Below are positions 11,611 to 38,098 of a stretch of DNA of 64,000 bases, in pieces. Under the pieces are notes generated by a model. That model made no database searches, was not told the DNA's origin, and worked only from the letters and a program-made list of their open reading frames with translations. The number at the start of each line of letters is the position of its first letter. Within the stretch, counting starts at the first letter, position 1. The position numbers and the translations under genes are program-made. This stretch comes from Candidatus Moraniibacteriota bacterium (GTDB lineage Bacteria > Patescibacteriota > Minisyncoccia > Moranbacterales > DUUL01), in assembly GCA_041596615.1 (NCBI GenBank), contig JBFHIG010000004.1, positions 5,280 through 69,279 of the forward strand. Direction: 5' to 3'.

Positions 11611-12378
11611 ATGAATCTTTCAATTATTTTAGTAAATTATCAAAGTGAAAAATGGCTCGAAAATTGTTTAGAAAAACTAAGTGAAGATAGTTGCCCTGCT
11701 CTTGATTTTGAAGTTATTATCATCAATAACGATAATAAAAAATTCCTTCCTAGCAAGAAGCTCTCTTTCATTCCAAAAATAGTCCAGAGTAAGGAAAATC
11801 TTGGTTTTGGGAGAGCTAACAACTTGGGGGTGAAAATTGCCAAAGGTAAAAATATTTTATTCTTAAATCCTGATACCATTTTTAAAAGAAAAGACATCAA
11901 ACTGCTCTTTTGTTATTTTGAAAAAAACCCACATATCGGGGTGTTGAGCCCGCTGATAATCCAAGCCTCTCGCCTACAAGCACAACCATTTACTTGTGGT
12001 AAAAAAACCTCTCTTCTGGGAATTATCTTTAGAAATACAATTTTAAAACCGTGGAACAAAAAAACCCCGACCAATGTTGATTGGGTTTCTGGCACTGCAT
12101 TATTAACAAGAAAACACCTTTTTGAAAAAGTTGGGGGTTTTGATGAAAATTTTTTTATGTATTTTGAGGACCAAGATCTGTGTCTTAGGATTAAAAAACT
12201 AGGATATGATATTGTTTTTTTTCCCAAAAGCACTGTTTTGCATTATGACGGAAAATGTTGGCCAAACACCAAGAAACAAAAAAATTCTTTTTATAAATCT
12301 CAAGACTACTTTTTTAAAAAACATTACCCCTCTTATAAATATTTTATCCTCAGAGCTTTAAAAAGAATAGCTTTATGA
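11611..12378 (+). CDS. Family 2 glycosyltransferase
   Basis: SIILVNYQSEKWLENCL, FGRANNLG, FLNPD and MYFEDQDLCLR, the classic GT2 (GT-A) motifs. Confidence 0.85.
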   Translation: MNLSIILVNYQSEKWLENCLEKLSEDSCPALDFEVIIINNDNKKFLPSKKLSFIPKIVQSKENLGFGRANNLGVKIAKGKNILFLNPDTIFKRKDIKLLFCYFEKNPHIGVLSPLIIQASRLQAQPFTCGKKTSLLGIIFRNTILKPWNKKTPTNVDWVSGTALLTRKHLFEKVGGFDENFFMYFEDQDLCLRIKKLGYDIVFFPKSTVLHYDGKCWPNTKKQKNSFYKSQDYFFKKHYPSYKYFILRALKRIAL

Positions 12379-16021: not shown

Positions 16022-16435
16022 TTAATTACAATTTTCTTTCTTTAAACAGTTCTTTATCGTCGGCATTGTTTTCATGGTATTTGATGTTAAATCAGGATTG
16101 ATAACATTAAGCAATAACCAGGCAACAAGTGCTAGACCTAAACCAAAGATAGCGCTGTAAATTGTCTCTTTTGCATCACCCATTGTAGATGCGTTCCCTG
16201 CAGAAAATACAGTATACTTAAAAGCACCAAATCCAATCATAAAAATTGCCAACAAAGCCGCAACCCCAATCCCAAAGGTATACAAAGAATTTAAATAAGA
16301 CATGAAGTCGTCTGTTCCCCCAGATTGTCCGGGAATAATTTCTCTGGTTGTGTATCCAGCAGCAAAAACATTACTAGCTACAAAAAAACTAGTTATGCTT
16401 ATAAATGCTAAAATTTTATTTCTTTTTAAGCTCAT
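16022..16435 (-). CDS. VirB2/TrbC-like T4SS pilin candidate
   Basis: 137 aa with signal peptide (..SNVFAAG), a short polar stretch and two hydrophobic helices (FGIGVAALLAIFMIGFGAF / IFGLGLALVAWLLLNVI). This is the topology of T4SS pilins. It sits in an operon with VirB4, VirB6 and PrgI homologues. Confidence 0.5.
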   Translation of the reverse strand: MSLKRNKILAFISITSFFVASNVFAAGYTTREIIPGQSGGTDDFMSYLNSLYTFGIGVAALLAIFMIGFGAFKYTVFSAGNASTMGDAKETIYSAIFGLGLALVAWLLLNVINPDLTSNTMKTMPTIKNCLKKENCN

Positions 16436-20691: not shown

Positions 20692-22557
20692 CTAAACCTC
20701 TTCTTCTTCTTTTTCTTTTTCAATTTGAATTCGTTGAGCAGGATTTGTTGTAATTAATTTATCCTCGTCATATGATGCCACAACTTGTATTGCCGCTCTT
20801 TTTAGGCCTGCAAAGAAAATACCCTCTCCCACACCACAGTCCATTAAAAGATATTTTTCTCTATCTGTTAAATAAAAAGTGTCTGCAATAACATCAATGG
20901 CCGATTGCGATTGTTTCATTAATAGTTGTATAGAGGAATTTGAAACAATTGGCTTCCCATATTTAGAGGACATAAAATCTGAAATATCCTGAGTAATAGT
21001 TGTTAGTCCACCATAATATTTTCTGATTCTTTTTGCTACCATAAACAAAAATCTTGCAGCCTCGTCATGCTCCATCATTCTCCAAGCCTCATCAACAACA
21101 ATCAATCTCTTTTTAACATTAATTCGGACTTCTTTCCAAATATAATTTAGAATCATGTACATTGCCATCGGTCTTAGTTCTTCCTCCAAGTCTCTGATAT
21201 TGAAAACTACCAATTGATTGTCCAGTGAAATGTTTGTTCTGTTATTTAAAAAGCCAGAAAAAATTCCTTTTGTATATTTTTCTAATCTAATCGTGATATC
21301 CTCAACGCCCTTCATGTTTGAAAGAACTTCATAAAGATCAAGCAAAACAGGCATGGTCCTGTCTTTTAGATCATCTAAAGGGGTGTCTTCTGTAATATCT
21401 CTAACCGCATAAGTTTCCCTAATTGCTTGTTCTAAAATTGACTCCTCTTCCGGTGTTAAGGTCCCTAACATCAGCTTTAAAAGTCCCAACAACGAAGATA
21501 TTGTGCTTCTAATTACATCTTCAACCTCAACACCCTTCTCCATTGATAAATCAAAAGGATTAATGTGGTTTTTTGTATTCAAAGAAATTCTTAGGTAAGA
21601 ACCTCCTACTGTTTCTGTGAGATATTTATACTCATCTTCAGGATCAACAATAATGGCACTTGCCCCCATCATAAGTGAACGTAAGATTTCCAATTTAACA
21701 GTATAACTTTTTCCGGCTCCCGACTTAGCAAAAACCACCATATTTGCGTTTTCCATAGAAAAGCGATCAAATAAAATCAATGAGTTGTTGTGTCGATTTA
21801 TTCCGTATAAGATTCCTTGATTAGAGGTCACATCAGCAGAAACAAAAGGGAAAGTTGTTGAAAGTGGAGATGTATTTAGGGCATTACCGTTAAGTAATTT
21901 ATCAACACCAAGTGGTATCGTAGAAACAAACCCTTCTTTCATTCTAAAAATAGACCTTTTTGTATATACTGAGCGCGCATTTAATAAGGATTCTAACATA
22001 ATTGTGTTCTTATCTAGAGCATCCTTAGTTTCTCCAAATACATTGAAATATAATCCAAACTTAAAAAATCTTTCTGAACCTTCTTGCAGTTGATCTCTTA
22101 AAGTTTCAACATTACTATATGCCATTTCCAAGATAGGATCTCTTGTTAGCCCTTTTTCAGATTCAATGTTCATTTCTGATTGAATTTGAGTAACTTTTTT
22201 TCTTAACTTCTTAAGAATAGTTCCTGTGTCAACAGGATAGATAAACATCGATATGTCCAAAGGAAGGTTAATCCCAATAACTGGATTCATCCAGCCCATA
22301 GCAAGTGCCCTAGGATATGCAGCTACAAAAAGCGTTCTACAGAAAGTGTCTCCTATTTGCAAATTTGAACTTGAAACCCCAAAAGCAGAGGGTGAGATCA
22401 GATCAATAACCCTGGCTAGCCCCTCTCGGTAAAGCCTTTCTTTGTTCAGCAAATCAGATGAAGTTTCTTCTTTGATGTCTGCTTGAGATAAAACAGAACT
22501 TTTATTAGAAACTTCTTTGCCGTTTTTTGTTTTTCCGAACTTAGGTAATCCTATCAT
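20692..22557 (-). CDS. virB4: VirB4/TraE-type T4SS ATPase, middle and C-terminal ATPase portion
   Basis: LQIGDTFCRTLFVAAYPRAL (typical Gram-positive VirB4 segment), Walker A VVFAKSGAGKSYTVK and Walker B LIVVDEAWRMM; 621 aa. Confidence 0.85.
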   Translation of the reverse strand: MIGLPKFGKTKNGKEVSNKSSVLSQADIKEETSSDLLNKERLYREGLARVIDLISPSAFGVSSSNLQIGDTFCRTLFVAAYPRALAMGWMNPVIGINLPLDISMFIYPVDTGTILKKLRKKVTQIQSEMNIESEKGLTRDPILEMAYSNVETLRDQLQEGSERFFKFGLYFNVFGETKDALDKNTIMLESLLNARSVYTKRSIFRMKEGFVSTIPLGVDKLLNGNALNTSPLSTTFPFVSADVTSNQGILYGINRHNNSLILFDRFSMENANMVVFAKSGAGKSYTVKLEILRSLMMGASAIIVDPEDEYKYLTETVGGSYLRISLNTKNHINPFDLSMEKGVEVEDVIRSTISSLLGLLKLMLGTLTPEEESILEQAIRETYAVRDITEDTPLDDLKDRTMPVLLDLYEVLSNMKGVEDITIRLEKYTKGIFSGFLNNRTNISLDNQLVVFNIRDLEEELRPMAMYMILNYIWKEVRINVKKRLIVVDEAWRMMEHDEAARFLFMVAKRIRKYYGGLTTITQDISDFMSSKYGKPIVSNSSIQLLMKQSQSAIDVIADTFYLTDREKYLLMDCGVGEGIFFAGLKRAAIQVVASYDEDKLITTNPAQRIQIEKEKEEEEV

Positions 22558-23249: not shown

Positions 23250-23666
23250 TCAAATTTTACTATTTGTGTCCAATAAATCAGCTAGACTCTTTGAACTTTT
23301 CAATTCCTTTTCTTTAATATATCTGTTGATAGACGCTTTTTCATTTTTCCTTGCCGTTCTTTTTATTGGTCTTTGTGTTTCGTTTTGAATATTTCTGTGC
23401 CAAGTTAAAACTTTGGGTTTAAATAAATATAAAATTCCGTTTATTATAAACTGTAGAAATGTTAACCCTGCTGGTTTATAAAAAGCAAAAGCAAGAGAAA
23501 GTAAAATAACTGGTATTCCAAAAAGTATTAGGGCTGGCATAGAACCCATTTGCCATAAAAAAAACAATCCTGCCGCTCCAAGACCCAACCAGCTTAGCTG
23601 TTTTATTGTCAATTGAAAAGCAAGCTTATCTTCAACCTCAATATACTGTGGAACATTAAAATTCAT
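23250..23666 (-). CDS. PrgI-family (VirB3-like) small membrane protein
   Basis: MNFNVPQYIEVEDKLAFQLTIKQLSWLGLGAAGLFFLW followed by a second TM. This matches the PrgI-family N-terminal signature and its position directly upstream of VirB4. Confidence 0.6.
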   Translation of the reverse strand: MNFNVPQYIEVEDKLAFQLTIKQLSWLGLGAAGLFFLWQMGSMPALILFGIPVILLSLAFAFYKPAGLTFLQFIINGILYLFKPKVLTWHRNIQNETQRPIKRTARKNEKASINRYIKEKELKSSKSLADLLDTNSKI

Positions 23667-27629: not shown

Positions 27630-28799
27630 CTATAAATCATACAGGTCATACATTGATGAAGAGCTCATCATTTGATCTATATCCATTGAACCTGCTATAT
27701 CTGAAATATCAAAAGAATCAATACCAAATTGATCTAAAATATTTGTTGTGTCAGAACCCAATATATCAACCTCGGACATAACTGCTTGTACCTTTCCAAG
27801 CATAGAAACCAATTCAACTGGATCATCTTCATCTGTTGCAATTGTTTCATCTTGACTAAGCATATATTTTTGCAAAGACAACCCCATTTTGTGAATATCT
27901 TTTAATACATATGGGACCTCTAGATCTTTAATTTTTTCATAAATAACCTCAGATGTTCCTTTTAGATCTGTAAGGTTTGAAGAATCTCCATCTTCAATAT
28001 CACTTCCCATACCAGTTATCAAGCTGGTTGCAATTCCCATCATATTTCCACTGTCCTGGAAAAGATAAGGAGCTTCTTCGAATATTATATAACCCACTTG
28101 CACAAAATATTCTTCCACAGCAGCCTTTTCTTCTTCAAGTGTTTGATCATTTTTTTCCGTTACTTCTTCTTGAATATTTAGTTCTTCATCTGAGATAACC
28201 TCCAATTCGTCATCAAGATTAACTTCTTTAATTGTTTTTTCAACAATAGCCTGCACCTCTTCTTCTGTTAATGAATATTTCACAACATCTCCCGACTCTT
28301 TGATTGTTTTGAGAATTTCTTTATCAACACTGGCTTGATTAAGCAACTCCAATTCCTCCTTTTTCTGTTCCTTGATATTTTTCAAAAAAACCTCCGTTGC
28401 ATTTATGTTATTCTTTGCACCATCTTCAGTATTTTTCACAGTACCTGTTTTTTCTTCAAGACCCTCAATCACTTCAGTGGACTCACCTGTTTTGTTTTTT
28501 GTTGTTGTATTTAAAAGATTCTTCATTTCTTCTGAATTTCCTACCTTTTTTACCAATGGATCAAATCCTCCCTCAACCTCAACTCCATCAGAATACCCAT
28601 CTTCATCAGTATCTGCCTTGTTGGGATCCGTTCCGAGTGCCATTTCTTCTTGATTTGTCAACCCATCACCATCTAAATCTTCGAAATAATTTAATTTATT
28701 TTCATCTGCGTGTGAAAATTGAATCCAAGCAAAAGCAAGCATAGCAAAAAACACAGCCCCTTTTTTGATTGGTAATTCAAAAGTATTCTTTTTTTTCAT
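27630..28799 (-). CDS. Highly acidic secreted protein with thrombospondin-type-3-like Ca-binding repeats; first gene of the T4SS-like array
   Basis: Signal peptide, then DLDGDGLTNQEEMALGTDPNKADTDEDGYSDGVE, followed by a long Asp/Glu-rich region. Confidence 0.6.
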   Translation of the reverse strand: MKKKNTFELPIKKGAVFFAMLAFAWIQFSHADENKLNYFEDLDGDGLTNQEEMALGTDPNKADTDEDGYSDGVEVEGGFDPLVKKVGNSEEMKNLLNTTTKNKTGESTEVIEGLEEKTGTVKNTEDGAKNNINATEVFLKNIKEQKKEELELLNQASVDKEILKTIKESGDVVKYSLTEEEVQAIVEKTIKEVNLDDELEVISDEELNIQEEVTEKNDQTLEEEKAAVEEYFVQVGYIIFEEAPYLFQDSGNMMGIATSLITGMGSDIEDGDSSNLTDLKGTSEVIYEKIKDLEVPYVLKDIHKMGLSLQKYMLSQDETIATDEDDPVELVSMLGKVQAVMSEVDILGSDTTNILDQFGIDSFDISDIAGSMDIDQMMSSSSMYDLYDL

Positions 28800-28875
28800 T
28801 TATTTTTATTTTTTGATGATTGATATAAAAACTCTACACCAAAACAAATTTATTATTTCTTTTAAACTTGTTTTG

Positions 28876-28904
28876 ATTATAACACATTTTTATTTTATGC
28901 AAAA
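28876..28904 (-). promoter_or_regulatory. Extended -10 promoter candidate for the T4SS-like operon
   Basis: The minus strand reads TGTTATAAT (-10 TATAAT at 28876-28881 with TGn upstream). A weak -35, TTTTGC, lies at 28899-28904. The element is about 75 nt upstream of the ATG at 28799. Confidence 0.35.
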
Positions 28905-28905
28905 T

Positions 28906-30537
28906 TTAAAAAAAAGTTATTAATATAAGCAACCCTAAATATATAAGAACTGTCAACAAAATCCACCAATTTAGATTTCTTACTTTTATTTTTTTGTTAT
29001 TTAAAATCCAATAATCAATCGCCCCAAAAATTACAGCTATTAACCAAAGTCTTTTTTCATTCAAAACAACAATTGAGGTTATATAGCTGATAAATATTGC
29101 CACCCCAAAAAAAAGTCTTGCGTTTTCCTCTCCCAGTATAGTTGGAATTGTTGTTACTTCATTTTCTCTATCACCTTCAATATCCTTAATATCCTTAATT
29201 GGTAATAAAAAGGTGTATACAATAAATAAAAAAAGAGCTATTTTCCAAGGAAATTTTTCCAGAGACTGCCCCTCAGAAACAACAATAAAACCCATAAATA
29301 GAAACAGCATAGATGCTGCAGAGGATACTACGCCAGAAACAAAAACAATTCTTTTCAATCTTAATGGTCTACAAGAATAAACCCAGGTTATTAATAAATA
29401 AGCGCAAATTATTAGAAAAAATTTAGAACCAACAACTATAGCTGTCAAAAGAGACATTGTCATTGGAATAAGAGCGAGATTCAAATATTCCTCCTTTGAA
29501 AAAATTTTTTTAATTAAAGGCCTTTCTGTATTTGTAATTTCGTCAATTTTTTCATCTTCTATATCATTAATAAAAACTGAATAAAACCATGCACATAAAA
29601 TTGAAATTAAGAGATTTACTATTACCAAGAAAGCGAATATATCAAAAGGTTTAATTTGTTTGAAATAAAAATAACCAATTGCTAAACCAGTAAAAAACAT
29701 CCCCCCATTAAAAAACATCTGTGGATATCTAATATTTTTTATTAAAGCAAATAACTTTTTTTTATTTAAAATAAATTGCAATAAAATTAAATTTCCGAAT
29801 AAGATTATTGTGTAAAAAAGTGCTGATCTAAGATGAAGAGACACTTTCATTGATTTTTTGTCAAAATTAAAAAGCTCCAAAGAGGTTAAAAAGGTTGAAG
29901 CTATATCACTACCATTTACTTTAAAAATATTTTCCCCTGAAATTCCTTTTATTAAAAATGTTAATAAACTGGGGAAAATTGCAAAAATATATAATATTAC
30001 ATAAACAATAAAAATTCCCAAAAAACCTTTTAACCAACTTCTTTTTTTAATTCCTATATATAAACCAATTCCTAACGTTGCCAATAAAATTCCCGCCCTA
30101 GTTCCATATGTAATTCCAAAAGAAGGATTATCTCCGAAAAAATAAAAAAACTTCTTAAAAAGCCCTGCTATATTATCAAAAAGATAAAAACTCCAAAAAT
30201 CTTTTTCTTTGAAAATAATTTTATCAATAATCGGTGGCAGCACCATAACCCAGTGTCCCCATAATAAAAAAGTTGCTAATTTTGAAATTTTTTCCTTTGT
30301 AAAAATAACCAAAAAAGTTAAAAGAACTACATATACCATTAAAAAAAATAAAAAAGTTCCACTCACTAGAGATCCTACTAAATAAGAAAATTCATGTGTT
30401 TTAAAACCAAATAAAGCACTTTCAATTATATATCTAACAGCAACAATTAAAATAAAAGATATTAAAAATGTTTTTATTGTTATTGGTCCTCTTTCTAGAA
30501 ATTTAAATATTTTCTCAATACTGTTTATTATTTTCAT
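28906..30537 (-). CDS. UbiA-family prenyltransferase domain fused to a ~300-aa N-terminal polytopic membrane region
   Basis: The C-terminal half has NDIEDEKID and DIKDIEGDRE, the two Asp-rich UbiA motifs. The protein is multi-TM throughout. Confidence 0.65.
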   Translation of the reverse strand: MKIINSIEKIFKFLERGPITIKTFLISFILIVAVRYIIESALFGFKTHEFSYLVGSLVSGTFLFFLMVYVVLLTFLVIFTKEKISKLATFLLWGHWVMVLPPIIDKIIFKEKDFWSFYLFDNIAGLFKKFFYFFGDNPSFGITYGTRAGILLATLGIGLYIGIKKRSWLKGFLGIFIVYVILYIFAIFPSLLTFLIKGISGENIFKVNGSDIASTFLTSLELFNFDKKSMKVSLHLRSALFYTIILFGNLILLQFILNKKKLFALIKNIRYPQMFFNGGMFFTGLAIGYFYFKQIKPFDIFAFLVIVNLLISILCAWFYSVFINDIEDEKIDEITNTERPLIKKIFSKEEYLNLALIPMTMSLLTAIVVGSKFFLIICAYLLITWVYSCRPLRLKRIVFVSGVVSSAASMLFLFMGFIVVSEGQSLEKFPWKIALFLFIVYTFLLPIKDIKDIEGDRENEVTTIPTILGEENARLFFGVAIFISYITSIVVLNEKRLWLIAVIFGAIDYWILNNKKIKVRNLNWWILLTVLIYLGLLILITFF

Positions 30538-30821
30538 TTATTTATTTTAATAAATTTCACAATTTTTTGTTTTATTTTTTTATTAATTTCAAATATTATT
30601 TTACTTCTTAATAGTACAATTTCATTTCTCCAAACAGATTTTGAAACTGATAAAAAAATAATTCCCCCTTTCCAATCATTAATTTTAATATTTTTTTTTC
30701 CAATATCACCAAACATCTCCTGAATAACTAACTCTGTTGTTTGTCTTATTATGTGAATATCAAAAGAGAGTTTTGAACTATTTTTTACTCTTTTCTTTAA
30801 TAAAGCCTCAAAACTCCTCAT
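30534..30821 (-). CDS. DUF721 / DciA-like small protein
   Basis: 95 aa; ..INDWKGGIIFLSVSKSVWRNEIVLLRSKIIFEINKKI matches the DUF721 pattern (l..g.L.v.v.s..w..eL......i...in). Its position just downstream of dnaN is typical for the family. Confidence 0.55.
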   Translation of the reverse strand: MRSFEALLKKRVKNSSKLSFDIHIIRQTTELVIQEMFGDIGKKNIKINDWKGGIIFLSVSKSVWRNEIVLLRSKIIFEINKKIKQKIVKFIKINK

Positions 30822-30846: not shown

Positions 30847-31995
30847 TTATGATTTTATAATAGGCATAATGACATAAGAAAAGGATTCATCTATTTCTCC
30901 TTTTGTTTTTATTCTCTTAAAAATCACTGGTGATTTTTGTTTATTTAATTTAATTAACACTTTTTCACAATCAAATAAAACACTTGATAATCCTTCAAGA
31001 ATGAATCTGCAGTTAAATAATATTTCAAACTCCGTGCCAGTTATTTTTGCTGGAATTTTCGAAAGGTTATCTCCAGAATCCATTGATTGGGCTGTTATTA
31101 ATAAAGCATCTAATTCTTTTGTGTTTTTAAAATTAACTTCTCCATTTTGCGAATTTGTTACCAATGAAGCAATTTTAACAGCATTTATTAATTTTTCCTT
31201 TTCCACTTCAAGTTCTATATCAAATTTCTTAGGTAAAACCTGTTTATATTCTGGATAGTTTCCATTTATTAACCTTGAAACTATTTTAATTTCACTTGTG
31301 CTTATAAACAATTGATTTTGTTCAATAACAATATTAATTTCCTCATCCCTTGCAATTCTTTGCACCTCCATTAAAGCTAGAGCTGGAATAATAATAGCTG
31401 CTTTTTTTTCTTTGAAATTATCAAAACCCTCCCCATCCTCAATTTTTATCCCTTCAATATCAATTTCAGTTAATCTAAAACTATCTGTTGATGCAAGTGT
31501 TATGGAATTATTTTTAAATTTCATTAATATTCCATTTAACTCCTGCCTCGTATCATTGTGTGCAACAGAAACAAGCACTCCTGATATTGCTTTGTTTATT
31601 TTCTTAGGTTCAATAGAAAAAAATGCTTCATCTGGAACATCCGGGATAATCGGGAAATCTTTTGCGTCAATCCCTTTTATTTTAATTTTATGATTTTCTG
31701 TTGTTATTTTTAATTCCGATCCCTCAAGTTCACCAGAAACAACCTCATCTTTAATGGTGTTCAAAAAACCACCCACAATCCTTGCAGGAATTGTAATACT
31801 TCCCTCTTTCTCTATTTTAGCACCTATATAAACCTTAATAGCTATTTCAAGATTCGTAGCAGCTAATACAAGTCTCCCTTTTTCTGATGAAATTAAAATA
31901 TTCCCTAATATCGGAAGTGTTGTTTGTTTTGAAACAATTCTTTCAACCTTTGATATTCCCTCTTTTAAATTAATGGTTTTGCAAGTAAATTTCAT
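30847..31995 (-). CDS. dnaN: DNA polymerase III beta sliding clamp
   Basis: MKFTCKTINLKEGISKVERIVSKQTTLPILGNILI, 382 aa with a three-domain length, and ends ...SYVIMPI. It lies adjacent to dnaA. Confidence 0.9.
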   Translation of the reverse strand: MKFTCKTINLKEGISKVERIVSKQTTLPILGNILISSEKGRLVLAATNLEIAIKVYIGAKIEKEGSITIPARIVGGFLNTIKDEVVSGELEGSELKITTENHKIKIKGIDAKDFPIIPDVPDEAFFSIEPKKINKAISGVLVSVAHNDTRQELNGILMKFKNNSITLASTDSFRLTEIDIEGIKIEDGEGFDNFKEKKAAIIIPALALMEVQRIARDEEINIVIEQNQLFISTSEIKIVSRLINGNYPEYKQVLPKKFDIELEVEKEKLINAVKIASLVTNSQNGEVNFKNTKELDALLITAQSMDSGDNLSKIPAKITGTEFEILFNCRFILEGLSSVLFDCEKVLIKLNKQKSPVIFKRIKTKGEIDESFSYVIMPIIKS

Positions 31996-32278: not shown

Positions 32279-33679
32279 CTAGTATTCAATAAATTTTTCT
32301 TTTATAAATTTCAATTGATCTTTCATTAAAAGATTGTTTTCCAATTCTTTGGTTACTTTTTCATAACCATAAATTGCTGTGGAATGATCTCTTCCACCTA
32401 AAGATTTTCCAATTTCAGGAAAGGATAAATTTAATTCTTGTCGCAAGAAATAGATAACTATTTGCCTAGGCTTTACAACTTTCTTTTGTCTAGCCTTACC
32501 TACAATTTCTTCTGGTTTCACATCATAAAAATCACCCACAGATTTAATGATTTTTGAAACAGTTAAGTCTTTTTGTCTATTAATTGAAATAACATCTTTA
32601 GTCATTTCAGTAACATCCTCTATTGTAGGAGTAGTGTTTCTGAGTTGAAAAGTTACTACAATTTTATTTAAAGCTCCTTCTAATTCTCTAACATTATGGT
32701 AGATATTGGTAGCTAAATATTCAACAACGTTTTCAGGTATAGAAAAATTTTTTTCTGATAATTTTTTATTTATAATTGCAATTCTCGTTTCCAAATCAGG
32801 TTTATTAACATCAGCCATCATTCCACCTTCAAAACGAGAGCGTAAACGATCTTCGATTGTTGGGATTGATTTAGGGGCTCTATCGGAACTTAAAATAATT
32901 TGCTTTCCAAGTTGATAAAGAGATTCAAAAATATGAAAAAATTCTTCTTGAGTTTTTTCTTTCCCTGCTAAAAATTGAACATCATCCAGAATTAAAATAT
33001 CTAGGTCAATATAATTATTTTTAAATTCTTTTGCACGAGATTTTTGAATAGCATCCACAAGTTCGTTTGTGAATCTTTCCATACTTACATAGCGGATTTT
33101 AATATTAGGGTTCAGTTTTCCAGCATAATTCCCAGTCGATTGTAAAAGATGTGTTTTTCCAAGCCCCACCCCACCGTAAATAAAGAGGGGGTTATAATTT
33201 TTACCAGGAGCCTCAGCAATGCTGCGACAAGCCGCATAAGCTAATTCATTATTTCCACCAACCACAAAACTATCAAAAGAATAACGACTATTTAAATTTG
33301 ATTTATAAGTATTTCTTTGGGGTTGTTGTTTGGAAAAAGACCTTTGAGAATTATTAATTCTTTTAATATCAGCAACCACATTAGCATTATGATCTGATTT
33401 TTGTTTTTTGATGCCATTTAGATCGGATGGGTCGGAATTACCTATTCTACAAGAAAGGGTGTTTATTTCTCTTCTATATTGTTGAACAGCGTCAATTATT
33501 TGTGTTTTATATTTTTTTTCCAACCACTCCTTGGCAAAAATATTAGGAACGGAAACAACCAGTAGATTTTCGGTAATACCAAAAATAGAGGTACTTTTAA
33601 ACCATGTAGTAAAACTTGCTTTTGAAATTGACAGTTCCATTTCCCCCAACACGGCTTGCCATAGCTCTTCGTTGGTCAT
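32279..33679 (-). CDS. dnaA: Chromosomal replication initiator DnaA
   Basis: WQAVLGEMELSISKASFTTW, Walker A YGGVGLGKTHLL, LILDDVQFL, and a C-terminal DNA-binding domain (..GGRDHSTAIYGYEKV). Confidence 0.95.
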   Translation of the reverse strand: MTNEELWQAVLGEMELSISKASFTTWFKSTSIFGITENLLVVSVPNIFAKEWLEKKYKTQIIDAVQQYRREINTLSCRIGNSDPSDLNGIKKQKSDHNANVVADIKRINNSQRSFSKQQPQRNTYKSNLNSRYSFDSFVVGGNNELAYAACRSIAEAPGKNYNPLFIYGGVGLGKTHLLQSTGNYAGKLNPNIKIRYVSMERFTNELVDAIQKSRAKEFKNNYIDLDILILDDVQFLAGKEKTQEEFFHIFESLYQLGKQIILSSDRAPKSIPTIEDRLRSRFEGGMMADVNKPDLETRIAIINKKLSEKNFSIPENVVEYLATNIYHNVRELEGALNKIVVTFQLRNTTPTIEDVTEMTKDVISINRQKDLTVSKIIKSVGDFYDVKPEEIVGKARQKKVVKPRQIVIYFLRQELNLSFPEIGKSLGGRDHSTAIYGYEKVTKELENNLLMKDQLKFIKEKFIEY

Positions 33680-33757
33680 TTTTGTGCTTTTTAAGATTCA
33701 ACAATTCTTATTGTAGAGGACTTCTTTGCTTTTATCAATAAACCAAAAGATTGAAAA

Positions 33758-33785
33758 TGTGGAGAAACTGTGGAAAAGTGGAGAA
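33758..33785 (-). promoter_or_regulatory. Three tandem DnaA boxes upstream of dnaA
   Basis: The plus strand has TGTGGAGAA (33758-66), TGTGGAAAA (33769-77) and AGTGGAGAA (33777-85). Their reverse complements are TTCTCCACA, TTTTCCACA and TTCTCCACT, against the consensus TTATNCACA. Confidence 0.65.
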
Positions 33786-33833
33786 ACTTTTATTTTAAAA
33801 CAAAAATATTGTCAAGTTTTAAATTGAAATAGA

Positions 33834-33888: not shown

Positions 33889-34854
33889 TTATTTTGTCAC
33901 GCTCACCCTGAAGCTACTTGGTCTTTGTTGCATTGAATACAAAAATGCAACTTTATTAAGTTGATCAAAGTCAACTTTTGATTCCCTTAGCTCTTTTTTA
34001 CCAAAAAGCCCCTCACCTCGCTTTTTGGCTTCTTCAAGGGCTTTTTTTTGGTATTTTTGTGCCAACCCATATCTTCCTTCTTTGGCACATGCGTATGCAG
34101 CAGCCTCTAGTCCAGCCAAGAGGTTAGCCAGACTATTGGCATAAACACCCTCATAGAGAGGTACCAAGGATTTCTCTGCTATTTTTTCGATGTCAATATT
34201 TTCAACTTCGACACCGTTTACAATTAGTTGAATTGTGGCTGCCGCTGCCAGGGGCTCTTCATTGATAGACGCAAAACCTTTCCTGGCTTCACTGAAAAGT
34301 CCAGTTTCCAAGAAATAACAGGATGTCTTATATATAACAATATCAGCCCCTCGCTCAGACTTGTGATCTAAAGCTTCTTCAAGGGCTTTTTTCATGAGCT
34401 TAACAACTTTTTTGTCATTAGGCCCACTTTCCTCCTCCTCAATTCTTGCTTTTATCAGAGTCTTATATCCAGGAGGCGGAGGTTTTATAAGGGAAAAAAC
34501 AATTTCCCCTGTGTAATAATTCCTTAAATAAAGGGTGCAATCATTGCCTTCACACTCCTTGGTTAATTTGGCAATATTGCCCCCAAACTCAAGTACATCG
34601 TCCTGTATCTGGTAAGAAATGGACTTCTCACCCTTTAACCCAAAAAAATGCATACCGCTTTTCTTGCCTTTAAACAGGACCAGGGAATTGGTCCTTTCTT
34701 CTTTACTTACTATTCCGCTGAACATAACCAACGGTTTATTGGTTAGTTCTTCAACAAAATCAACCGCAAACGCAGAGGTTAAAGAGGTTAAATTTGCCAA
34801 AAAAATAGAAACAGCCATAGCCACCAACAAAGAACAACGGGATAATAATTTCAT
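33889..34854 (-). CDS. Secreted hypothetical protein (321 aa), Ala-rich C-terminal helical region
   Basis: I chose the ATG at 34854, which is preceded by AAGGAG 5 nt upstream. The product starts MKLLSRCSLLVAMAVSIFLANLTSLTSAFA (signal peptide). The track start at 34926 is TTG. Confidence 0.6.
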   Translation of the reverse strand: MKLLSRCSLLVAMAVSIFLANLTSLTSAFAVDFVEELTNKPLVMFSGIVSKEERTNSLVLFKGKKSGMHFFGLKGEKSISYQIQDDVLEFGGNIAKLTKECEGNDCTLYLRNYYTGEIVFSLIKPPPPGYKTLIKARIEEEESGPNDKKVVKLMKKALEEALDHKSERGADIVIYKTSCYFLETGLFSEARKGFASINEEPLAAAATIQLIVNGVEVENIDIEKIAEKSLVPLYEGVYANSLANLLAGLEAAAYACAKEGRYGLAQKYQKKALEEAKKRGEGLFGKKELRESKVDFDQLNKVAFLYSMQQRPSSFRVSVTK

Positions 34855-35263
34855 AACGTCTCCTTGTGAATTGGCCTGCTTAAGGCCGTTAAAAAAATAT
34901 GTTTTTATAAACAAAATTAAATTCAAAGTACTGCACTATAAAGGTTAACAAGGAAAACTGTTTTGTCAAGACATATTTAAAGTATTTTGTCAATATAAAA
35001 CAACATAAAAAGATTTTTATTCTAAAAATCCCTTATTAAAGAGAAAAAAATGACGAACAAAGTTATTTTTCATTGACAAAATAGTTAATAAAAGTTCTAA
35101 TTATAAATAAAAGTATAAAACAAACAAAAGGTGTGATAATAATATTTATAAGGTAAAAAATATTAATAAAGAAACACAAAAAATAAAACAAAATGAATAT
35201 AAAACCATTATATTCATTAAAATAGTCTTATTTTAACTAACTTTAGTCCTTAGAAATTAGCAA

Positions 35264-35279
35264 TGTTCCACGTGGAACA
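35264..35279. promoter_or_regulatory. parS-like site 1, embedded in a 46-bp perfect palindrome (35249-35294)
   Basis: TGTTCCACGTGGAACA against the parS consensus TGTTNCACGTGAAACA. The full palindrome is CTTAGAAATTAGCAATGTTCCAC|GTGGAACATTGCTAATTTCTAAG. Confidence 0.75.
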
Positions 35280-35334
35280 TTGCTAATTTCTAAGTAAGCT
35301 AAATATTAATTAAAATAATATATAATGAAGTTAT

Positions 35335-35350
35335 TGTTCCACGTGGAACA
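35335..35350. promoter_or_regulatory. parS-like site 2, in a 24-bp palindrome (35331-35354)
   Basis: TTATTGTTCCAC|GTGGAACAATAA. Confidence 0.75.
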
Positions 35351-35422
35351 ATAAACAAAAATATATAAAAACAAGAGCCTTTTTCTAAAAAGAAAATAAA
35401 GAGAGTGAATAGATTTTTATAA

Positions 35423-35431
35423 TGTGAATAA
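35423..35431 (-). promoter_or_regulatory. Single consensus-fitting DnaA box inside the parS spacer
   Basis: The plus strand TGTGAATAA is the reverse complement of TTATTCACA, which fits TTATNCACA. A weaker neighbour, AGTGAATAG, lies at 35404-35412. Confidence 0.4.
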
Positions 35432-35465
35432 TATAAAAAAGGAATGTCTCTAGTTTTAAAATAAT

Positions 35466-35481
35466 TGTTCCACGTGGAACA
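35466..35481. promoter_or_regulatory. parS-like site 3, with a 16-bp core only
   Basis: TGTTCCACGTGGAACA. The right flank TGCTAATTA resembles the right flank of site 1 (TTGCTAATTT). Confidence 0.75.
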
Positions 35482-35514
35482 TGCTAATTATTAAAAATTA
35501 GAAAAAAATAAGAT

Positions 35515-35530
35515 TGTTCCACGTGGAACA
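35515..35530. promoter_or_regulatory. parS-like site 4, in a 26-bp palindrome (35510-35535)
   Basis: AAGATTGTTCCAC|GTGGAACAATCTT. Confidence 0.75.
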
Positions 35531-35567
35531 ATCTTATAAAATAATTAAAGCTCAAATAAAAAATAAT

Positions 35568-35583
35568 TGTTCCACGTGGAACA
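35568..35583. promoter_or_regulatory. parS-like site 5, in a 28-bp palindrome (35562-35589)
   Basis: AATAATTGTTCCAC|GTGGAACAATTATT. Confidence 0.75.
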
Positions 35584-35823
35584 ATTATTAAGGTTTACTG
35601 GAATAACAAAAAATATTAAAAAGAATATAAATTCATAATATTAAAAAAAGGCATAAAAATAGTACAAAAAAGACTTATAAACAAAAAATAATAAAATAAA
35701 AATACTCTTTTTTTGTTAATCTTTTTAAAAAATTGATTTTTTAGAGATTTTGTTGTATACAGGGTGAAGGGATATTGATAAAAAAGAGAAAAAAATATTT
35801 TTTTATTAAAAAGACCACAATTA

Positions 35824-35896
35824 GGGGATATAGCTCAGCTGGTAGAGTGCTCCCATGGCATGGGAGAGGTCTGGGGTTCGACTCCCCATATCTCCA
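35824..35896 (+). tRNA. tRNA-Ala (anticodon GGC)
   Basis: Hand-folded cloverleaf: acceptor GGGGATA/TATCTCC with the G3:U70 Ala identity pair, anticodon loop AUGGCAU, T-loop TTCGACT, discriminator A. No CCA is encoded. Confidence 0.9.
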
Positions 35897-35908
35897 CATT
35901 AAAAAATT

Positions 35909-35980
35909 GCCCCCGTAGTTCAATGGATAGAACAAGGGACTCCTAAGCCTTAGATGTAAGTTCGATTCTTGCCGGGGGTA
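35909..35980 (+). tRNA. tRNA-Arg (anticodon CCU)
   Basis: Acceptor GCCCCCG/CGGGGGT (G1-U72), D-arm GTTC/GAAC, anticodon loop CUCCUAA, T-arm GTAAG-TTCGATT-CTTGC. There is one A31-G39 mismatch. No CCA is encoded. Confidence 0.8.
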
Positions 35981-35995
35981 CATTTATATAGAAAT

Positions 35996-38098
35996 ATGAA
36001 GGATTTAAAAATTCCAAAAAGTGTTCAATATCTTTTAAAAAAGCTTGAATTAGTCAATTTCGAAGCTTTTGTTGTTGGCGGATGTGTCAGGGATCTTTTG
36101 CTGGGAAAAGAGCCAAAAGACTGGGATGTTACAACAAATGCAACTCCAAAGCAAATTTTGGGGGTTTTTGTTGATGGTAAATATGAAAATGAATTTGGAA
36201 CAGTTCTGATTTCTGATAAATACCTCACGGGATATGAAATCGTGTCTGATAAAATTAAAATAAAACCAGAAATAAAGGAAAAAATCATCAAAATAGCTCG
36301 AGAAAAATATCTTGCAAAAATAAAATGCAAAGGACATGGTATTCAACATTCTGAAAATGTGACAAAAAATGCACTTGAGATAGCAGGGACATTTAAAAGG
36401 ATTAACCCCGATTTTATCGAGATTATTGCAATGTTTCATGACGTAGGAAGGAGTGTCACAAAAAATCAGGGACATCAAGGGCATATTGAAGAAAGCCAAA
36501 AACTGTTAGAAAAAGAGACGGCAACTTTTTTGTCAAAAGAAGAAATAAAAGCCCTTAAAAAAGAAATTTTGCACAATTTCAACATCCCAAGAGAAAGTCT
36601 AGAAAGTCAAATACTAACAGAGGCTGATTTGATTGACGGGATTTGCGTGGAAAGGATTGAAGCAATGAATGACACGGCCAAAGAAGAACATAAGAAGTGG
36701 ATTGAGGAATATTATAATAATAAAGGGGCTTTTAGCCAGATAGTTACTGTTCGAGGACAGGAATTGATGGCAGAAGCAATTGATTTATATAACCGAGAGG
36801 GCTTTGATTTTCAAATATCTCAAATAGAAGTTGTTAAAAATGAGAATATTGAAATAACAACATATCGAACAGAGTCGGGATATTCAGATAAAAGACACCC
36901 AGATGAGGTGATATTTGCAAAAAGCCTAGAAGAAGACCTTTCAAGAAGGGATTTTACAATAAATGCCATGGCATTAAAACAACTTGCCCCAGCAAAAGCA
37001 AAGTTAAAAGAAGCTTTAAATCAGGAAAAATATCAAATAATTGACTTATTTGATGGTAAATTGGATCTTCAGAACAAACTTGTGCGTGCAGTTGGGAAGG
37101 CAAAGGAACGTTTTGAAGAAGATGCTCTTAGAATGCTCAGAGCAGTTCGTTTTGCAGCTTCCCTGAATTTTGAAATAGAAAAGAAAACCAAAGAGTCTAT
37201 CGAGAAAAAACTTGTGAATATAAGCTTTGTTTCAATAGAAAGAATCAGAGATGAGTTTGAAAAAATAATTCTCTCAGAGAATCCAGCGAGGGGGGTGGAA
37301 ATGCTTATGGAAACAGGATTAATGAAATATATCATTCCAGAAGTAATAAACACTGTTGGGGTGGAACAAAATCACCATCATTATTATGGAAAATATAATA
37401 CAGTTTATAAACACCTTGTTGCAAGCTTAGCTAAATGTCCTTCAAAAAAAATTGAAGTAAGATTAGCAGCATTTTTACATGACATTGGCAAGCCAGTAGT
37501 TAAGCAGGGAAGTGGGGAAAAAGCAACTTTTTATAACCATGAATATGTAGGTGAGAAAATGGTTAAAAAAATTCTAGAAAGACTTAAATTTACCAGAAAA
37601 ACAATTGAAAAAACAACATTACTTGTTAAAAATCACATGTTTTATTATAACGTTGATGAGGTTGGCGAGGCGGGTGTGAGACGGGTAGTGAGAAAGGTTG
37701 GTGTAAACAATATAAAAGATCTTATTGATGTGCGAATTGGAGATAGACTAGGAAGTGGTGTTCCAAAAGCCGTTCCATATAAATTGAGACATTTTCAATA
37801 TATGGTCGAAAAAGTTTCAAAGGACCCCATATCAGTTAAACAACTTAAAATAAACGGAGATATTCTCATAAGAGAGCTTAAAATAAAGCCTGGCCCACAA
37901 ATAGGTGCTATTTTAGAGGTTTTATTGGCAAAAGCAATAGAAAATCCCAAAATAAACGAGAAGAAAAAACTGCTAAACTTGGCTAGAAGTTTGAAAAAGG
38001 AAGATTTGGTTGACTTGAGGAAACTTGCAAAAAACAAAATTAAAAAAGAAAAAAATAAAGAAGATAGAGAAACAAAGAAAAAACACTGGGTTAAATAA
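35996..38098 (+). CDS. cca: CCA-adding tRNA nucleotidyltransferase (class II, PolyA_pol head) with a C-terminal HD domain and an extra HD-domain insertion in the head
   Basis: FVVGGCVRDLLLGKEPKDWDVTT, ITTYRTESGYSDKRHPDEV, EEDLSRRDFTINAMAL and C-terminal LAAFLHDIGKP. I chose the ATG at 35996 because the track start at 35969 overlaps tRNA-Arg. Confidence 0.8.
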   Translation: MKDLKIPKSVQYLLKKLELVNFEAFVVGGCVRDLLLGKEPKDWDVTTNATPKQILGVFVDGKYENEFGTVLISDKYLTGYEIVSDKIKIKPEIKEKIIKIAREKYLAKIKCKGHGIQHSENVTKNALEIAGTFKRINPDFIEIIAMFHDVGRSVTKNQGHQGHIEESQKLLEKETATFLSKEEIKALKKEILHNFNIPRESLESQILTEADLIDGICVERIEAMNDTAKEEHKKWIEEYYNNKGAFSQIVTVRGQELMAEAIDLYNREGFDFQISQIEVVKNENIEITTYRTESGYSDKRHPDEVIFAKSLEEDLSRRDFTINAMALKQLAPAKAKLKEALNQEKYQIIDLFDGKLDLQNKLVRAVGKAKERFEEDALRMLRAVRFAASLNFEIEKKTKESIEKKLVNISFVSIERIRDEFEKIILSENPARGVEMLMETGLMKYIIPEVINTVGVEQNHHHYYGKYNTVYKHLVASLAKCPSKKIEVRLAAFLHDIGKPVVKQGSGEKATFYNHEYVGEKMVKKILERLKFTRKTIEKTTLLVKNHMFYYNVDEVGEAGVRRVVRKVGVNNIKDLIDVRIGDRLGSGVPKAVPYKLRHFQYMVEKVSKDPISVKQLKINGDILIRELKIKPGPQIGAILEVLLAKAIENPKINEKKKLLNLARSLKKEDLVDLRKLAKNKIKKEKNKEDRETKKKHWVK

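What the first reader, a model, noticed from the sequence alone, without database searches (positions are those of the whole stretch)
35249..35589. Dedicated centromere-like array of five identical parS-type palindromes with co-varying palindromic flanks
The 16-mer TGTTCCACGTGGAACA occurs exactly five times within 320 bp, at 35264, 35335, 35466, 35515 and 35568, with centre spacings of 71, 131, 49 and 53 bp. I saw it nowhere else in the 64 kb.

It matches the ParB/Spo0J-binding parS consensus TGTTNCACGTGAAACA except for the G at position 12, which mirrors the C at the degenerate position 5, so the site is a perfect dyad. One half-site equals the TGTTCCAC half of the B. subtilis spo0J-internal parS. 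The sites lie about 1.6 kb from dnaA, in a 0.9-kb gene-free spacer.

Two things are unusual. First, the sites are packed into a dedicated non-coding locus rather than dispersed or intragenic. Second, four of the five sites extend the dyad symmetry well beyond the 16-bp core, using a different flank sequence each time (perfect palindromes of 46, 24, 26 and 28 bp). The flanks co-vary to preserve symmetry, which ParB core recognition alone does not require. This hints at cruciform or hairpin formation, or at a palindrome-generating duplication mechanism. No parA or parB gene lies in this window.
Basis: partly seen in the sequence, partly recalled or inferred. Interest (0 to 1): 0.75.

Follow-up and report, generated by a model that had tools for sequence, protein, structure and literature searches.

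The report
Origin-side parS centromere array, self-extending palindromes
Five identical copies of a well-known bacterial centromere sequence (parS) sit beside the replication origin of an uncultured Moranbacteria (CPR) genome; the sequence is ordinary, but its palindromes have grown outward symmetrically, and in most relatives the same array lies in-frame inside a membrane-protein gene.

Summary
TGTTCCACGTGGAACA occurs five times at 35264-35583 and nowhere else in 64 kb. One detail needs correcting: the perfect palindromes are 46, 24, 16, 30 and 28 bp.

The 16-mer is identical to Pseudomonas aeruginosa parS2/parS3, a proven high-affinity ParB site. The array lies in a 969-bp spacer whose left edge is the GC-skew minimum, 1.6 kb from dnaA, in a Candidatus Moraniibacteriota genome. 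Arrays of 4-18 such sites occur in 12 related loci, with no site dispersed in 252 kb of flanking DNA. The best reading is an origin-proximal centromere.

No ParB could be found or excluded. The window and all 171 related loci screened lack it, and whole genomes were out of reach.

Flank symmetry is statistically solid (P about 1e-21). It ends abruptly, is specific to parS cores, and is commoner in non-coding arrays. This fits hairpin-templated copying better than selection.

Unexpectedly, in most relatives the array sits in-frame, in all three reading frames, inside a conserved Wzy-like gene (135 of 150 family representatives). The window's non-coding array is therefore the exception.

Verdict: a known kind of element, in a new variant.

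The parts
35249..35294 (.). Site 1: parS core 35264-35279 inside a 46-bp perfect palindrome (15 bp of unique symmetric flank on each side)
   Evidence: single-strand DNA hairpin -21.1 kcal/mol, z=-14
35331..35354 (.). Site 2: parS core 35335-35350 inside a 24-bp perfect palindrome
35466..35481 (.). Site 3: parS core with no symmetric extension. Its left flank is identical to that of site 5, and its right flank resembles that of site 1
35508..35537 (.).
   Evidence: terminator-like on the minus strand
35562..35589 (.). Site 5: parS core 35568-35583 inside a 28-bp perfect palindrome
34855..35823 (.). Non-coding spacer (969 bp, 20% GC) that holds the array. The cumulative G-C minimum at 34863 is its left edge, and gene orientation switches across it
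   Evidence: Rfam finds no RNA family in it
35423..35431 (-). The only DnaA-box-like 9-mer in the array spacer (TTATTCACA), in the 131-bp gap between sites 2 and 3
33757..33790 (-). Three tandem DnaA-box-like repeats (TGTGGAGAA / TGTGGAAAA / AGTGGAGAA on the plus strand) in the dnaA-proximal spacer. A pair of boxes is conserved at the same place in L001 and L201
32279..33679 (-). dnaA
   Evidence: Pfam Bac_DnaA, Bac_DnaA_C, DnaA_N
30847..31995 (-). dnaN. It is followed by a DciA-like ORF at 30534-30821 (Pfam hit below the gathering score)
33889..34854 (-). Uncharacterised secreted protein gene between the array and dnaA (present in L001, absent in L002/L003)
   Evidence: not homologous to the genes downstream of Wzy-parS in relatives
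35824..35981 (+). tRNA-Ala(GGC) and tRNA-Arg(CCT), which bound the spacer on the right
35996..38098 (+). CCA-adding enzyme gene. In relatives its orthologue lies head-to-head with the Wzy-like gene that carries the parS array
27630..30537 (-). TSP3_bac protein and UbiA genes. Their orthologues flank the Wzy-parS locus in relatives (synteny markers)

Best explanation
The five palindromes are a chromosomal centromere. They form a tight, origin-proximal array of high-affinity parS sites in a Candidatus Moraniibacteriota (Patescibacteria/CPR) genome.

By analogy with characterised ParABS systems (inferred, not shown here), dimers of a chromosomal ParB/Spo0J protein encoded elsewhere in the genome would load at each 16-bp core, close as CTP-dependent clamps and slide away. 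This would build a partition complex beside the origin that recruits SMC and/or ParA to separate the sister origins. Five adjacent loading sites raise the loading rate and give redundancy.

The extra flank symmetry is most likely a mutational by-product, not a functional requirement (inferred). The perfect, relatively GC-rich core folds back as a hairpin in nascent or single-stranded DNA. The polymerase then copies the opposite arm (quasipalindrome template switching). This writes a perfect mirror image of one flank onto the other, for a variable distance and with a different sequence at each site.

In most relatives the same array is embedded in-frame in a Wzy-like membrane-protein gene at the same neighbourhood. 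In the window's clade it is non-coding, either through loss of that gene or through relocation (direction not resolved).
For: **Identity**
- The core is identical to P. aeruginosa parS2/parS3, the sites its ParB binds with highest affinity. It is also the P. putida site, and one base from the M. xanthus consensus.
- The nearest sister clade uses the universal TGTTTCACGTGAAACA instead, which differs only at the degenerate consensus positions 5/12.

**Location**
- The cumulative G-C minimum at 34863 is the spacer's edge. Gene strands switch there, and dnaA/dnaN are adjacent.

**Conservation**
- Arrays of 4-9 sites lie upstream of dnaA in L001, L002, L003, L201, L202 and L225.
- In L002 DnaA-box-like 9-mers lie among the sites; L003 has one, about 160 bp downstream of its array.

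**Distribution**
- 114 sites lie in arrays and none is dispersed in 252 kb of flanks. The 3 'outside' sites abut the L287 array.

**DNA-level selection**
- In Wzy-like genes the 16-mer is read in three frames. 76 of 79 peptide occurrences use exactly the palindrome's codons, although 32-1536 synonymous codings are available.
- Sites are positionally conserved at 47-59% protein identity.
- 135 of 150 unbiased family representatives carry them: 693 occurrences, against 0 in reversed controls.

**Flank mechanism**
- The symmetry is significant.
- The runs are perfect and contiguous with the core, then drop to background (0.29 against 0.28).
- Non-parS palindromes in the window are at chance frequency.
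- Long runs are commoner in non-coding arrays (10/31) than in coding arrays (9/83; P=0.01).
- The flanks of W and L001 are unalignable, yet each is symmetric. Four-fold sites are only 57% identical (saturation 33%), so the symmetry is recent or renewed.
- Template switching is documented to homogenise and expand inverted-repeat arms (PMC7202029, PMC8794818, PMC13100816).
Against: - No ParB or ParA gene was found in the 64-kb window, in 160 Patescibacteria dnaA neighbourhoods, or among the annotated neighbours of seven Wzy-parS loci. If par genes were placed at random, about 3 hits would be expected in that much sequence, so their absence is mildly worrying.
- No binding data exist for any CPR ParB, and the literature searched says nothing about ParABS in this group.
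- About 150 other Patescibacteria dnaA loci have no parS at all within 8-10 kb.
- The array spacer holds only one weak DnaA box, so it may lie beside oriC rather than inside it.
- The conserved A-rich/T-rich flanks plus hairpin also resemble weak bidirectional terminators.
- The template-switch origin of the flanks is inferred from pattern only.
Confidence: 0.7

Rival explanations
1. The palindromes are bound by a protein other than ParB, or act as an origin-associated element, for example an auxiliary oriC or dnaA-regulatory operator array. On this reading the genome lacks a ParABS system.
For: - No ParA or ParB in the window or in any of 171 related loci.
- The arrays sit at the skew switch, and in L002 they are interleaved with DnaA boxes.
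- The half-site TGTTCCACG shares the TCCAC core with the local DnaA boxes TTTTCCACA and TTGTCCACA (sequence inspection).
Against: - A 16-of-16 match to a validated ParB site, and to the universal parS in the sister clade, is very unlikely by coincidence.
- The half-sites are not within 1 mismatch of the DnaA box.
- In L281 the array-bearing gene lies about 56 kb from dnaA, so the array is not tied to oriC itself.
- Only about 2% of each genome was sampled for par genes.
Confidence: 0.12
2. The sites are parS, but the extended symmetric flanks are selected for a structural function. Candidates are cruciform or hairpin extrusion that helps ParB loading, origin unwinding or fork pausing, or bidirectional transcription termination protecting the origin region.
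For: - Stable predicted hairpins (-7.6 to -21.1 kcal/mol, z down to -14).
- The AT-rich, presumably supercoiling-sensitive context.
- Sites 4 and 5 score as hairpin plus T-run on the minus strand, and terminator-like hits exceed shuffles (6 against 1.5).
- The A-rich left and T-rich right consensus.
Against: - Extension is all-or-nothing and varies from 0 to 15 bp among sites of one array. Many sites, including site 3, have none.
- The runs end abruptly with no imperfect continuation.
- The same A/T flank consensus occurs inside ORFs, where terminators would be harmful.
- No gene lies upstream on the minus strand that would need terminating.
- 255 parS sites in phage contigs never extend by more than 3 bp, so ParB sites do not generally need symmetric flanks.
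Confidence: 0.15
3. The 16-mer with its symmetric flanks is a selfish or mobile palindromic repeat (REP-, RPE- or MITE-like). On this reading it inserts into DNA, including in-frame into genes, and merely resembles parS.
For: - In-frame presence in all three reading frames inside a protein-coding gene recalls Rickettsia palindromic elements (the comparison itself rests on my own knowledge).
- Copy number varies from 0 to 18 and correlates with protein length (r=0.44).
- Local duplications of site modules occur.
Against: - No copy lies outside the single array in 252 kb sampled from 13 genomes.
- Only one gene family hosts the sites.
- Sites are positionally conserved between orthologues at about 50% identity, rather than polymorphic insertions.
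- The repeat unit is only the 16-20-bp protein-binding palindrome and carries no shared element body.
Confidence: 0.03

Closest known systems
Pseudomonas aeruginosa / P. putida chromosomal parS (parS2, parS3 = TGTTCCACGTGGAACA; the parS1-4 cluster near oriC)
   Same: The 16-bp perfect palindrome is identical. The location is origin-proximal, with several sites close together, some of them intergenic. ParB binds this exact sequence with highest affinity (PMC4368675, PMC7022226).
   Different: The Pseudomonas sites are spread over kilobases among genes, whereas here 5 sites lie within 320 bp. In Pseudomonas parAB is known and lies about 7 kb from oriC, whereas here no ParB was found in the sequence available. 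No extended symmetric flanks are reported there.
Myxococcus xanthus parS cluster (22 sites in about 3 kb; consensus TGTTCCACGTGGAACG)
   Same: A dense array of near-identical parS sites of the C/G variant near the origin region, at about 7 sites per kb (PMC3899335).
   Different: The window's array is denser (about 16 per kb) but smaller, and lies in a roughly 1-Mb-class AT-rich CPR genome. The Myxococcus cluster sits 4 kb from parAB. I know of no description of in-frame embedding in one conserved gene, or of flank symmetry, in Myxococcus (not checked here).
Intragenic parS of Bacillus subtilis (the site inside spo0J) and other intragenic parS sites
   Same: A parS site can lie within a coding sequence without destroying the gene. 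The half-site TGTTCCAC is shared.
   Different: Those are single sites. The relatives here carry 4-18 sites in one Wzy-like gene, in all three reading frames, conserved across a whole lineage.
Plasmid centromere repeat arrays (for example F sopC and other iterated ParB-site arrays)
   Same: Many ParB-binding sites packed into a short dedicated non-coding locus.
   Different: Plasmid arrays are typically regular tandem repeats of a longer unit with plasmid-specific sequence. Here the spacing is irregular (49-131 bp), the inter-site DNA is unrelated, and the site is the chromosomal consensus.
Quasipalindrome template-switch mutagenesis and inverted-repeat expansion (PMC7202029, PMC8794818, PMC13100816)
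   Same: A replication error process that makes imperfect inverted repeats perfect and lengthens their arms. It predicts perfect, core-contiguous, abruptly ending symmetry with site-specific sequence, as seen here.
   Different: To my knowledge this has not been described at parS sites or in CPR bacteria.
phi29-family phage Spo0J/parS sites
   Same: Host-type parS pairs at short spacing in a dedicated non-coding stretch. In the IMG/VR phi29-like contigs they lie in the inverted terminal repeats.
   Different: These are phage genomes exploiting a host ParB. Their sites show no symmetric flank extension (0 of 255 sites extend by 4 bp or more).

Membership tests
Chromosomal parS (ParB/Spo0J-binding centromere site) | 16-bp inverted repeat matching TGTTNCACGTGAAACA | tested here: met
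   Five exact copies of TGTTCCACGTGGAACA. The sequence is identical to PAO1 parS2/parS3. The consensus is taken from PMC7022226.
Chromosomal parS (ParB/Spo0J-binding centromere site) | Location in the origin-proximal part of the chromosome | tested here: met
   G-C skew minimum at 34863; strand switch; dnaA 1.6 kb away.
Chromosomal parS (ParB/Spo0J-binding centromere site) | Few sites confined to one region, not dispersed genome-wide | tested here: met
   No further copy in the 64 kb. Across 13 array-bearing loci, 114 sites lie in arrays and none is dispersed in 252 kb. Whole genomes were not available.
Chromosomal parS (ParB/Spo0J-binding centromere site) | Conservation of the sites in related genomes at the equivalent locus | tested here: met
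   Arrays in L001, L002, L003, L201, L202 and L225 upstream of dnaA, and in L281-L287 next to the CCA-enzyme gene.
Chromosomal parS (ParB/Spo0J-binding centromere site) | A cognate ParB (ParB N-terminal domain plus HTH) encoded in the same genome | not testable with these tools
   Absent from the window and from 171 related loci. The rest of the genome could not be reached. A Spo0J search returned only Bacillus relatives.
Chromosomal parS (ParB/Spo0J-binding centromere site) | Specific binding by ParB, in vitro or by ChIP | not testable with these tools
   Experimental. The same sequence is bound by P. aeruginosa ParB (PMC4368675), but nothing is known for CPR proteins.
REP/RPE-like dispersed palindromic elements | Many copies dispersed around the genome | tested here: not met
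   No copy outside the arrays in 252 kb and none elsewhere in the window at up to 2 mismatches.
REP/RPE-like dispersed palindromic elements | In-frame presence inside protein-coding genes (the RPE trait) | tested here: inconclusive
   True in relatives, but only in one Wzy-like gene family, and the sites are positionally conserved there. Not true in the window.
Plasmid-type iterated centromere (regular tandem repeats) | Head-to-tail repeats of constant period that include the inter-site DNA | tested here: not met
   Spacings are 71, 131, 49 and 53 bp. Only the core and a few flank bases repeat.
Rho-independent (bidirectional) terminators | GC-rich stem-loop followed by a T-run, placed downstream of a transcription unit | tested here: inconclusive
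   Sites 2-5 are picked up by the consensus scan on the minus strand, and sites 4 and 5 have clear T-runs. However, no gene lies upstream on that strand, and the same flanks occur inside ORFs in relatives.
DnaA-box cluster / oriC core | Several 9-mers within 1 mismatch of TTATCCACA | tested here: not met
   The array spacer holds one such 9-mer (35423-35431). The parS half-sites do not qualify. The conserved pair of boxes lies in the dnaA-proximal spacer.
Known structured RNA families (Rfam) | Match above a family's gathering score | tested here: not met
   Only the two tRNAs pass. The hairpin-driven miRNA-like hits fall far below threshold.

The most novel reading that the evidence does not exclude
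In Moranbacteria and their relatives the chromosomal centromere is a high-density array of perfect parS palindromes that normally lives inside a conserved Wzy-like membrane-protein gene. The array is in-frame, uses all three reading frames, and uses the one parS variant that has no stop codon in any frame. One stretch of DNA is therefore under simultaneous selection as a gene and as a centromere.

In the window's clade the array has become non-coding. Freed from coding constraint, its palindromes grow by hairpin-templated copying, and in the sister clade they drift to the AT-richer canonical variant.

A more radical branch: if these genomes truly lack ParB, then a different protein has taken over the universal parS sequence.
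Probability: 0.5. Interest if true: 0.8.

Novelty: new variant of a known kind. Interest (0 to 1): 0.62.

Why it matters
Chromosome segregation in the ultrasmall, uncultured CPR/Patescibacteria is essentially unstudied. The literature searched had nothing on ParABS in this group.

These arrays give a concrete, testable centromere candidate for a large lineage. They also show three things that students of ParABS would not expect:
- **Very high site density**, at 12-16 sites per kb.
- **Long-term coexistence of a centromere array and an open reading frame.** This is a natural experiment in dual coding, and it would explain why the stop-free C/G variant of parS is the one used.
- **Outward growth of a protein-binding palindrome**, apparently by replication template switching. 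This is a clean natural example of how dimer-binding sites can be perfected and lengthened by mutation bias without any selection.

Practically, the 20-mer is a simple marker for the origin region in Moranbacteria MAGs. It is also a ready-made substrate for biochemical work on a CPR ParB.

Tried and rejected
1. **Locating the source genome.** Exact-protein look-ups with DnaA and with the two proteins at the window's ends all came back 'not on record'. The window could not be extended and the genome could not be searched for ParB.
2. **Finding a lineage ParB through the protein collection.** A Spo0J query returned only Bacillus relatives. It did verify the probe, but says nothing about CPR.
3. 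**Literature on ParABS in Patescibacteria/CPR.** Nothing relevant was found.
4. **The array spacer as a decayed Wzy-like gene.** tblastn of 120 motif-masked homologues against the non-coding spacers gave nothing convincing (best E=0.003 in L201, 0.03 in the window). This is not supported, although synteny places the array in the same neighbourhood.
5. **The secreted ORF next to the array as the orthologue of the gene downstream of Wzy-parS.** BLASTP gave E of 1.5 or more. Rejected.
6. **A genome-wide tendency to make long perfect palindromes.** Non-parS palindromes are at shuffle expectation. Rejected.
7. **Analogous arrays of a different palindrome in more distant Patescibacteria dnaA loci.** None were found.
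8. **A structured RNA in the spacer.** No Rfam family matches.
9. **One-to-one orthology of sites between the window and L001.** The spacers are syntenic, but the sites and flanks are not alignable one-to-one.
10. **A dispersed REP-like element.** Rejected.
11. I ran no further search on a speculative ParB query, because its top-120 listing could not be steered towards this lineage.
Full report

Yes. TGTTCCACGTGGAACA occurs exactly five times, at 35264, 35335, 35466, 35515 and 35568. There is no other match in the 64 kb, even at up to 2 mismatches (0.01 expected).

The sites lie in a non-coding stretch. It is bounded on the left by the true start (ATG 34854, signal peptide) of an uncharacterised secreted-protein gene, and on the right by tRNA-Ala at 35824. 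This gives 969 bp at 20% G+C.

The maximal perfect palindromes are 46, 24, 16, 30 and 28 bp.

The window has no ParA or ParB. tblastn with Spo0J/Soj finds nothing, and that probe matches the database entry at 100% identity. Pfam scans of all substantial ORFs are also negative, including a lenient rescan of the unannotated ones.

**2. Where is it?**

- The cumulative G-C curve reaches its minimum at 34863, the left edge of the spacer. Genes to the left are mostly on the minus strand and genes to the right mostly on the plus strand.
- The adjacent genes are dnaA (32279-33679), dnaN and a DciA-like ORF. The array therefore sits at the replication-origin region.
- The clearest DnaA boxes are not in the array spacer, which has one weak box at 35423. 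They lie in the 209-bp spacer directly upstream of dnaA, and a pair of boxes is conserved there in L001 and L201.
- I therefore place the array beside oriC, not demonstrably inside it.
- DnaA-based retrieval of relatives identifies the organism as Candidatus Moraniibacteriota (Patescibacteria/CPR). The nearest species representative has a DnaA that is 94% identical (L001).

**3. What is the 16-mer?**

It is not a new variant. It is letter-for-letter the perfect-palindrome parS2/parS3 of Pseudomonas aeruginosa, which ParB binds with the highest affinity of its ten sites (PMC4368675). The same sequence is listed for P. putida, and it is one base from the consensus of the 22-site Myxococcus xanthus cluster (PMC7022226, PMC3899335). 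The general consensus is TGTTNCACGTGAAACA.

**4. Relatives**

I examined 160 Patescibacteria dnaA neighbourhoods: 80 from species-representative genomes and 80 from metagenomes. Only the window's closest relatives and one more distant locus carry such sites, and always as arrays.

| Locus | DnaA identity | Sites |
|---|---|---|
| L201 | 84% | 6 × TGTTCCACGTGGAACA |
| L001 | 94% | 4 degenerate copies |
| L002 | 66% | 7 × canonical TGTTTCACGTGAAACA |
| L202 | 62% | 7 × canonical TGTTTCACGTGAAACA |
| L003 | 61% | 4 × canonical TGTTTCACGTGAAACA |
| L225 | 48% | 9 × TGTTCCACGTGGAACA |

- In L002 DnaA-box-like 9-mers are interleaved with the sites directly upstream of dnaA. L003 has a single such 9-mer, about 160 bp downstream of its array.
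- The two variants differ only at the degenerate positions 5 and 12, and the difference is a C-to-T/G-to-A transition pair.
- No other clustered palindrome exists in the remaining loci.
- Over all 13 array-bearing loci, 114 sites lie in arrays. The only 3 'outside' lie within 125 bp of the L287 array. None is dispersed in 252 kb. This excludes a REP-like dispersed repeat.

**5. An unexpected finding in the relatives**

In L225 the nine sites lie inside an intact 638-aa ORF of the Wzy_C (O-antigen ligase) family. The palindrome is read in all three frames, as CSTWN, VPRGT and FHVE. This C/G variant has no stop codon in any frame, whereas the canonical T/A variant contains TGA in one frame.

- A word-based search found 118 of 120 homologues carrying 1-13 such peptides.
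- That search is biased towards motif carriers, so I repeated it with HMMER and no word filter, using a motif-free homologue (P0141) as the query.
- Of the best 150 representatives of 50%-identity clusters, 135 carry at least one exact peptide, 104 carry at least three, and the maximum is 18. That is 693 occurrences, against 0 in reversed sequences.
- In the seven genes for which I have DNA, 76 of 79 peptide occurrences use exactly the palindrome's codons, although 32 to 1536 synonymous codings exist.
- Several sites are conserved in position and frame between orthologues of 47-59% identity, inside otherwise variable loops.

Selection is therefore on the DNA, not on the peptides.

The host gene lies head-to-head with the CCA-adding-enzyme gene, next to gyrA and/or a TSP3_bac gene. 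Read on the reverse strand, the window has CCA, tRNAs, the array, a dnaA block with UbiA, TSP3_bac and a further shared gene. The array therefore occupies the equivalent neighbourhood. In L287 the array even straddles the CCA-Wzy intergenic DNA and the ORF.

Whether the window's clade lost the gene and kept the array is open. I found no residual coding similarity, and the adjacent secreted ORF is unrelated to the genes downstream of Wzy-parS.

**6. The flanks**

- *Extended consensus.* Across 42 sites in seven genomes, position -2 is A in 40 and +2 is T in 39. Positions -1/+1 are A or T and are mirror-symmetric in 34 of 42. The conserved motif is thus a 20-mer.
- *Symmetry beyond the consensus.* 16 of 42 sites extend perfectly by 4 bp or more, and 14 by 6 bp or more. 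Among 4982 pseudo-sites in the same spacers the frequencies are 1.1% and 0.06% (P=3e-21 and 4e-35). Granting positions 1-3 for free, the non-coding arrays still give P=1.5e-5.
- *Control.* None of 255 parS-type sites in IMG/VR phage contigs extends by more than 3 bp.
- *Abrupt ends.* Beyond the first mismatch, symmetry falls to 0.29, against a background of 0.28.
- *Specific to parS.* Perfect palindromes not centred on parS are at shuffle expectation in the window.
- *Coding versus non-coding.* Long runs occur in 10 of 31 non-coding sites and 9 of 83 coding sites (P=0.01).
- *Recent origin.* The window and L001 spacers are syntenic, but their flanks are unalignable. Four-fold degenerate sites in dnaA are only 57% identical (33% at saturation), so a perfect 15+15-bp mirror cannot be an old relic.

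Together these point to discrete, recurrent copy events nucleated by the core hairpin. That is quasipalindrome template switching, a documented process that perfects and lengthens inverted-repeat arms (PMC7202029, PMC8794818, PMC13100816). This step is inferred from pattern, not reconstructed event by event.

Selection for cruciforms or terminators remains possible. The predicted hairpins are stable, and sites 4 and 5 look terminator-like on the minus strand. It fits the all-or-nothing, abruptly ending pattern less well. It also fits poorly with the same A/T flanks occurring inside ORFs.

**7. What remains open**

The key gap is ParB. It is absent from every stretch I could read, but that is only about 2% of each genome. 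The source genome is not in the look-up collection, and the literature is silent. I therefore give 0.7 to 'parS centromere array bound by ParB'.

All four L001 sites have lost the central CpG through transition-type changes, and two of them are inverted copies sharing a second change. Similar decayed copies (VPHGT, VPCGT, FHME) occur in some Wzy homologues. This could mark weakened or lost ParB function in those lineages. It also resembles the weaker P. aeruginosa site parS5.

**8. Verdict**

- The element is a member of a known kind (chromosomal parS). Its core sequence and its occurrence as a dense array both have precedent.
- It is presented in a new variant: extreme density in a CPR genome, self-extending palindromes, and a lineage-wide habit of embedding the array in-frame in one membrane-protein gene. 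The window's non-coding array is the exception to that habit.

Noticed in passing
L225:4332-6248 (minus strand); L281:10001-11677; L282:10001-11653; L284:10001-12058; L285:3294-5225; L286:10001-12151; L287:10001-11560; proteins P0121-P0354: A Wzy_C-like membrane-protein family of Moranbacteria/Parcubacteria carries 1-18 in-frame copies of the parS palindrome, read in three frames (VPRGT, FHVE, CSTWN). 135 of 150 unbiased family representatives have them, and 76 of 79 occurrences use the exact palindrome codons.
   Followed up: yes
L001:8166-8458: In the closest relative all four sites have lost the central CpG (CACGTG to CACATG or the equivalent). Sites 8286 and 8326 are inverted copies sharing a second change. 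The same kind of decay (VPHGT, VPCGT, FHME) is seen in some Wzy homologues (P0141, P0149, P0170). This may reflect concerted evolution, methylation-driven decay, or loss of the binding protein.
   Followed up: partly
L085:1-344 and 11440-11783 (and many of L081-L160): IMG/VR contigs of about 11 kb are phi29-like podophages (protein-primed PolB, gp16 ATPase, connector, Phi29-type capsid). They have 344-bp inverted terminal repeats, each carrying two host-type parS sites 42 bp apart. This recalls the known use of Spo0J/parS by phi29.
   Followed up: partly
window:16022-26659: A type IV secretion-like gene cluster (T4SS pilin 16022-16435, TraG/VirB4-like ATPase 20692-22557, PrgI-family 23250-23666), with several large unannotated ORFs between them.
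   Followed up: no
window:35996-38098: The CCA-adding enzyme gene encodes about 700 aa, against about 500 in relatives. The Pfam head-domain match is split into two stretches, and relatives align only from 36848 onward. This suggests an insertion of roughly 200 aa near the N-terminus.
   Followed up: no
L282:10680-11485: A module of three parS sites with shared flanks occurs three times inside the Wzy-like ORF, so arrays also grow by segmental duplication.
   Followed up: partly
L287:9877-9998: Three parS sites lie just upstream of the Wzy-like ORF start, in the intergenic DNA facing the CCA-enzyme gene. That array therefore straddles non-coding and coding sequence, a possible intermediate towards the window's fully non-coding array.
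   Followed up: partly
L003:8618-8717: A 100-base run of N (masked in the collection) lies directly next to the four-site array, so more sites could be hidden there.
   Followed up: no
L002:8269-8964 (minus strand): A 231-aa ORF with no Pfam match lies between the tRNA genes and the parS array in this relative only.
   Followed up: no
window:34971-35095: Conserved TTGACAAAA-containing blocks, shared with L001, lie between the array and the secreted-protein gene. They are probably promoter elements for the minus-strand genes. One pair forms a 34-nt imperfect inverted repeat.
   Followed up: no
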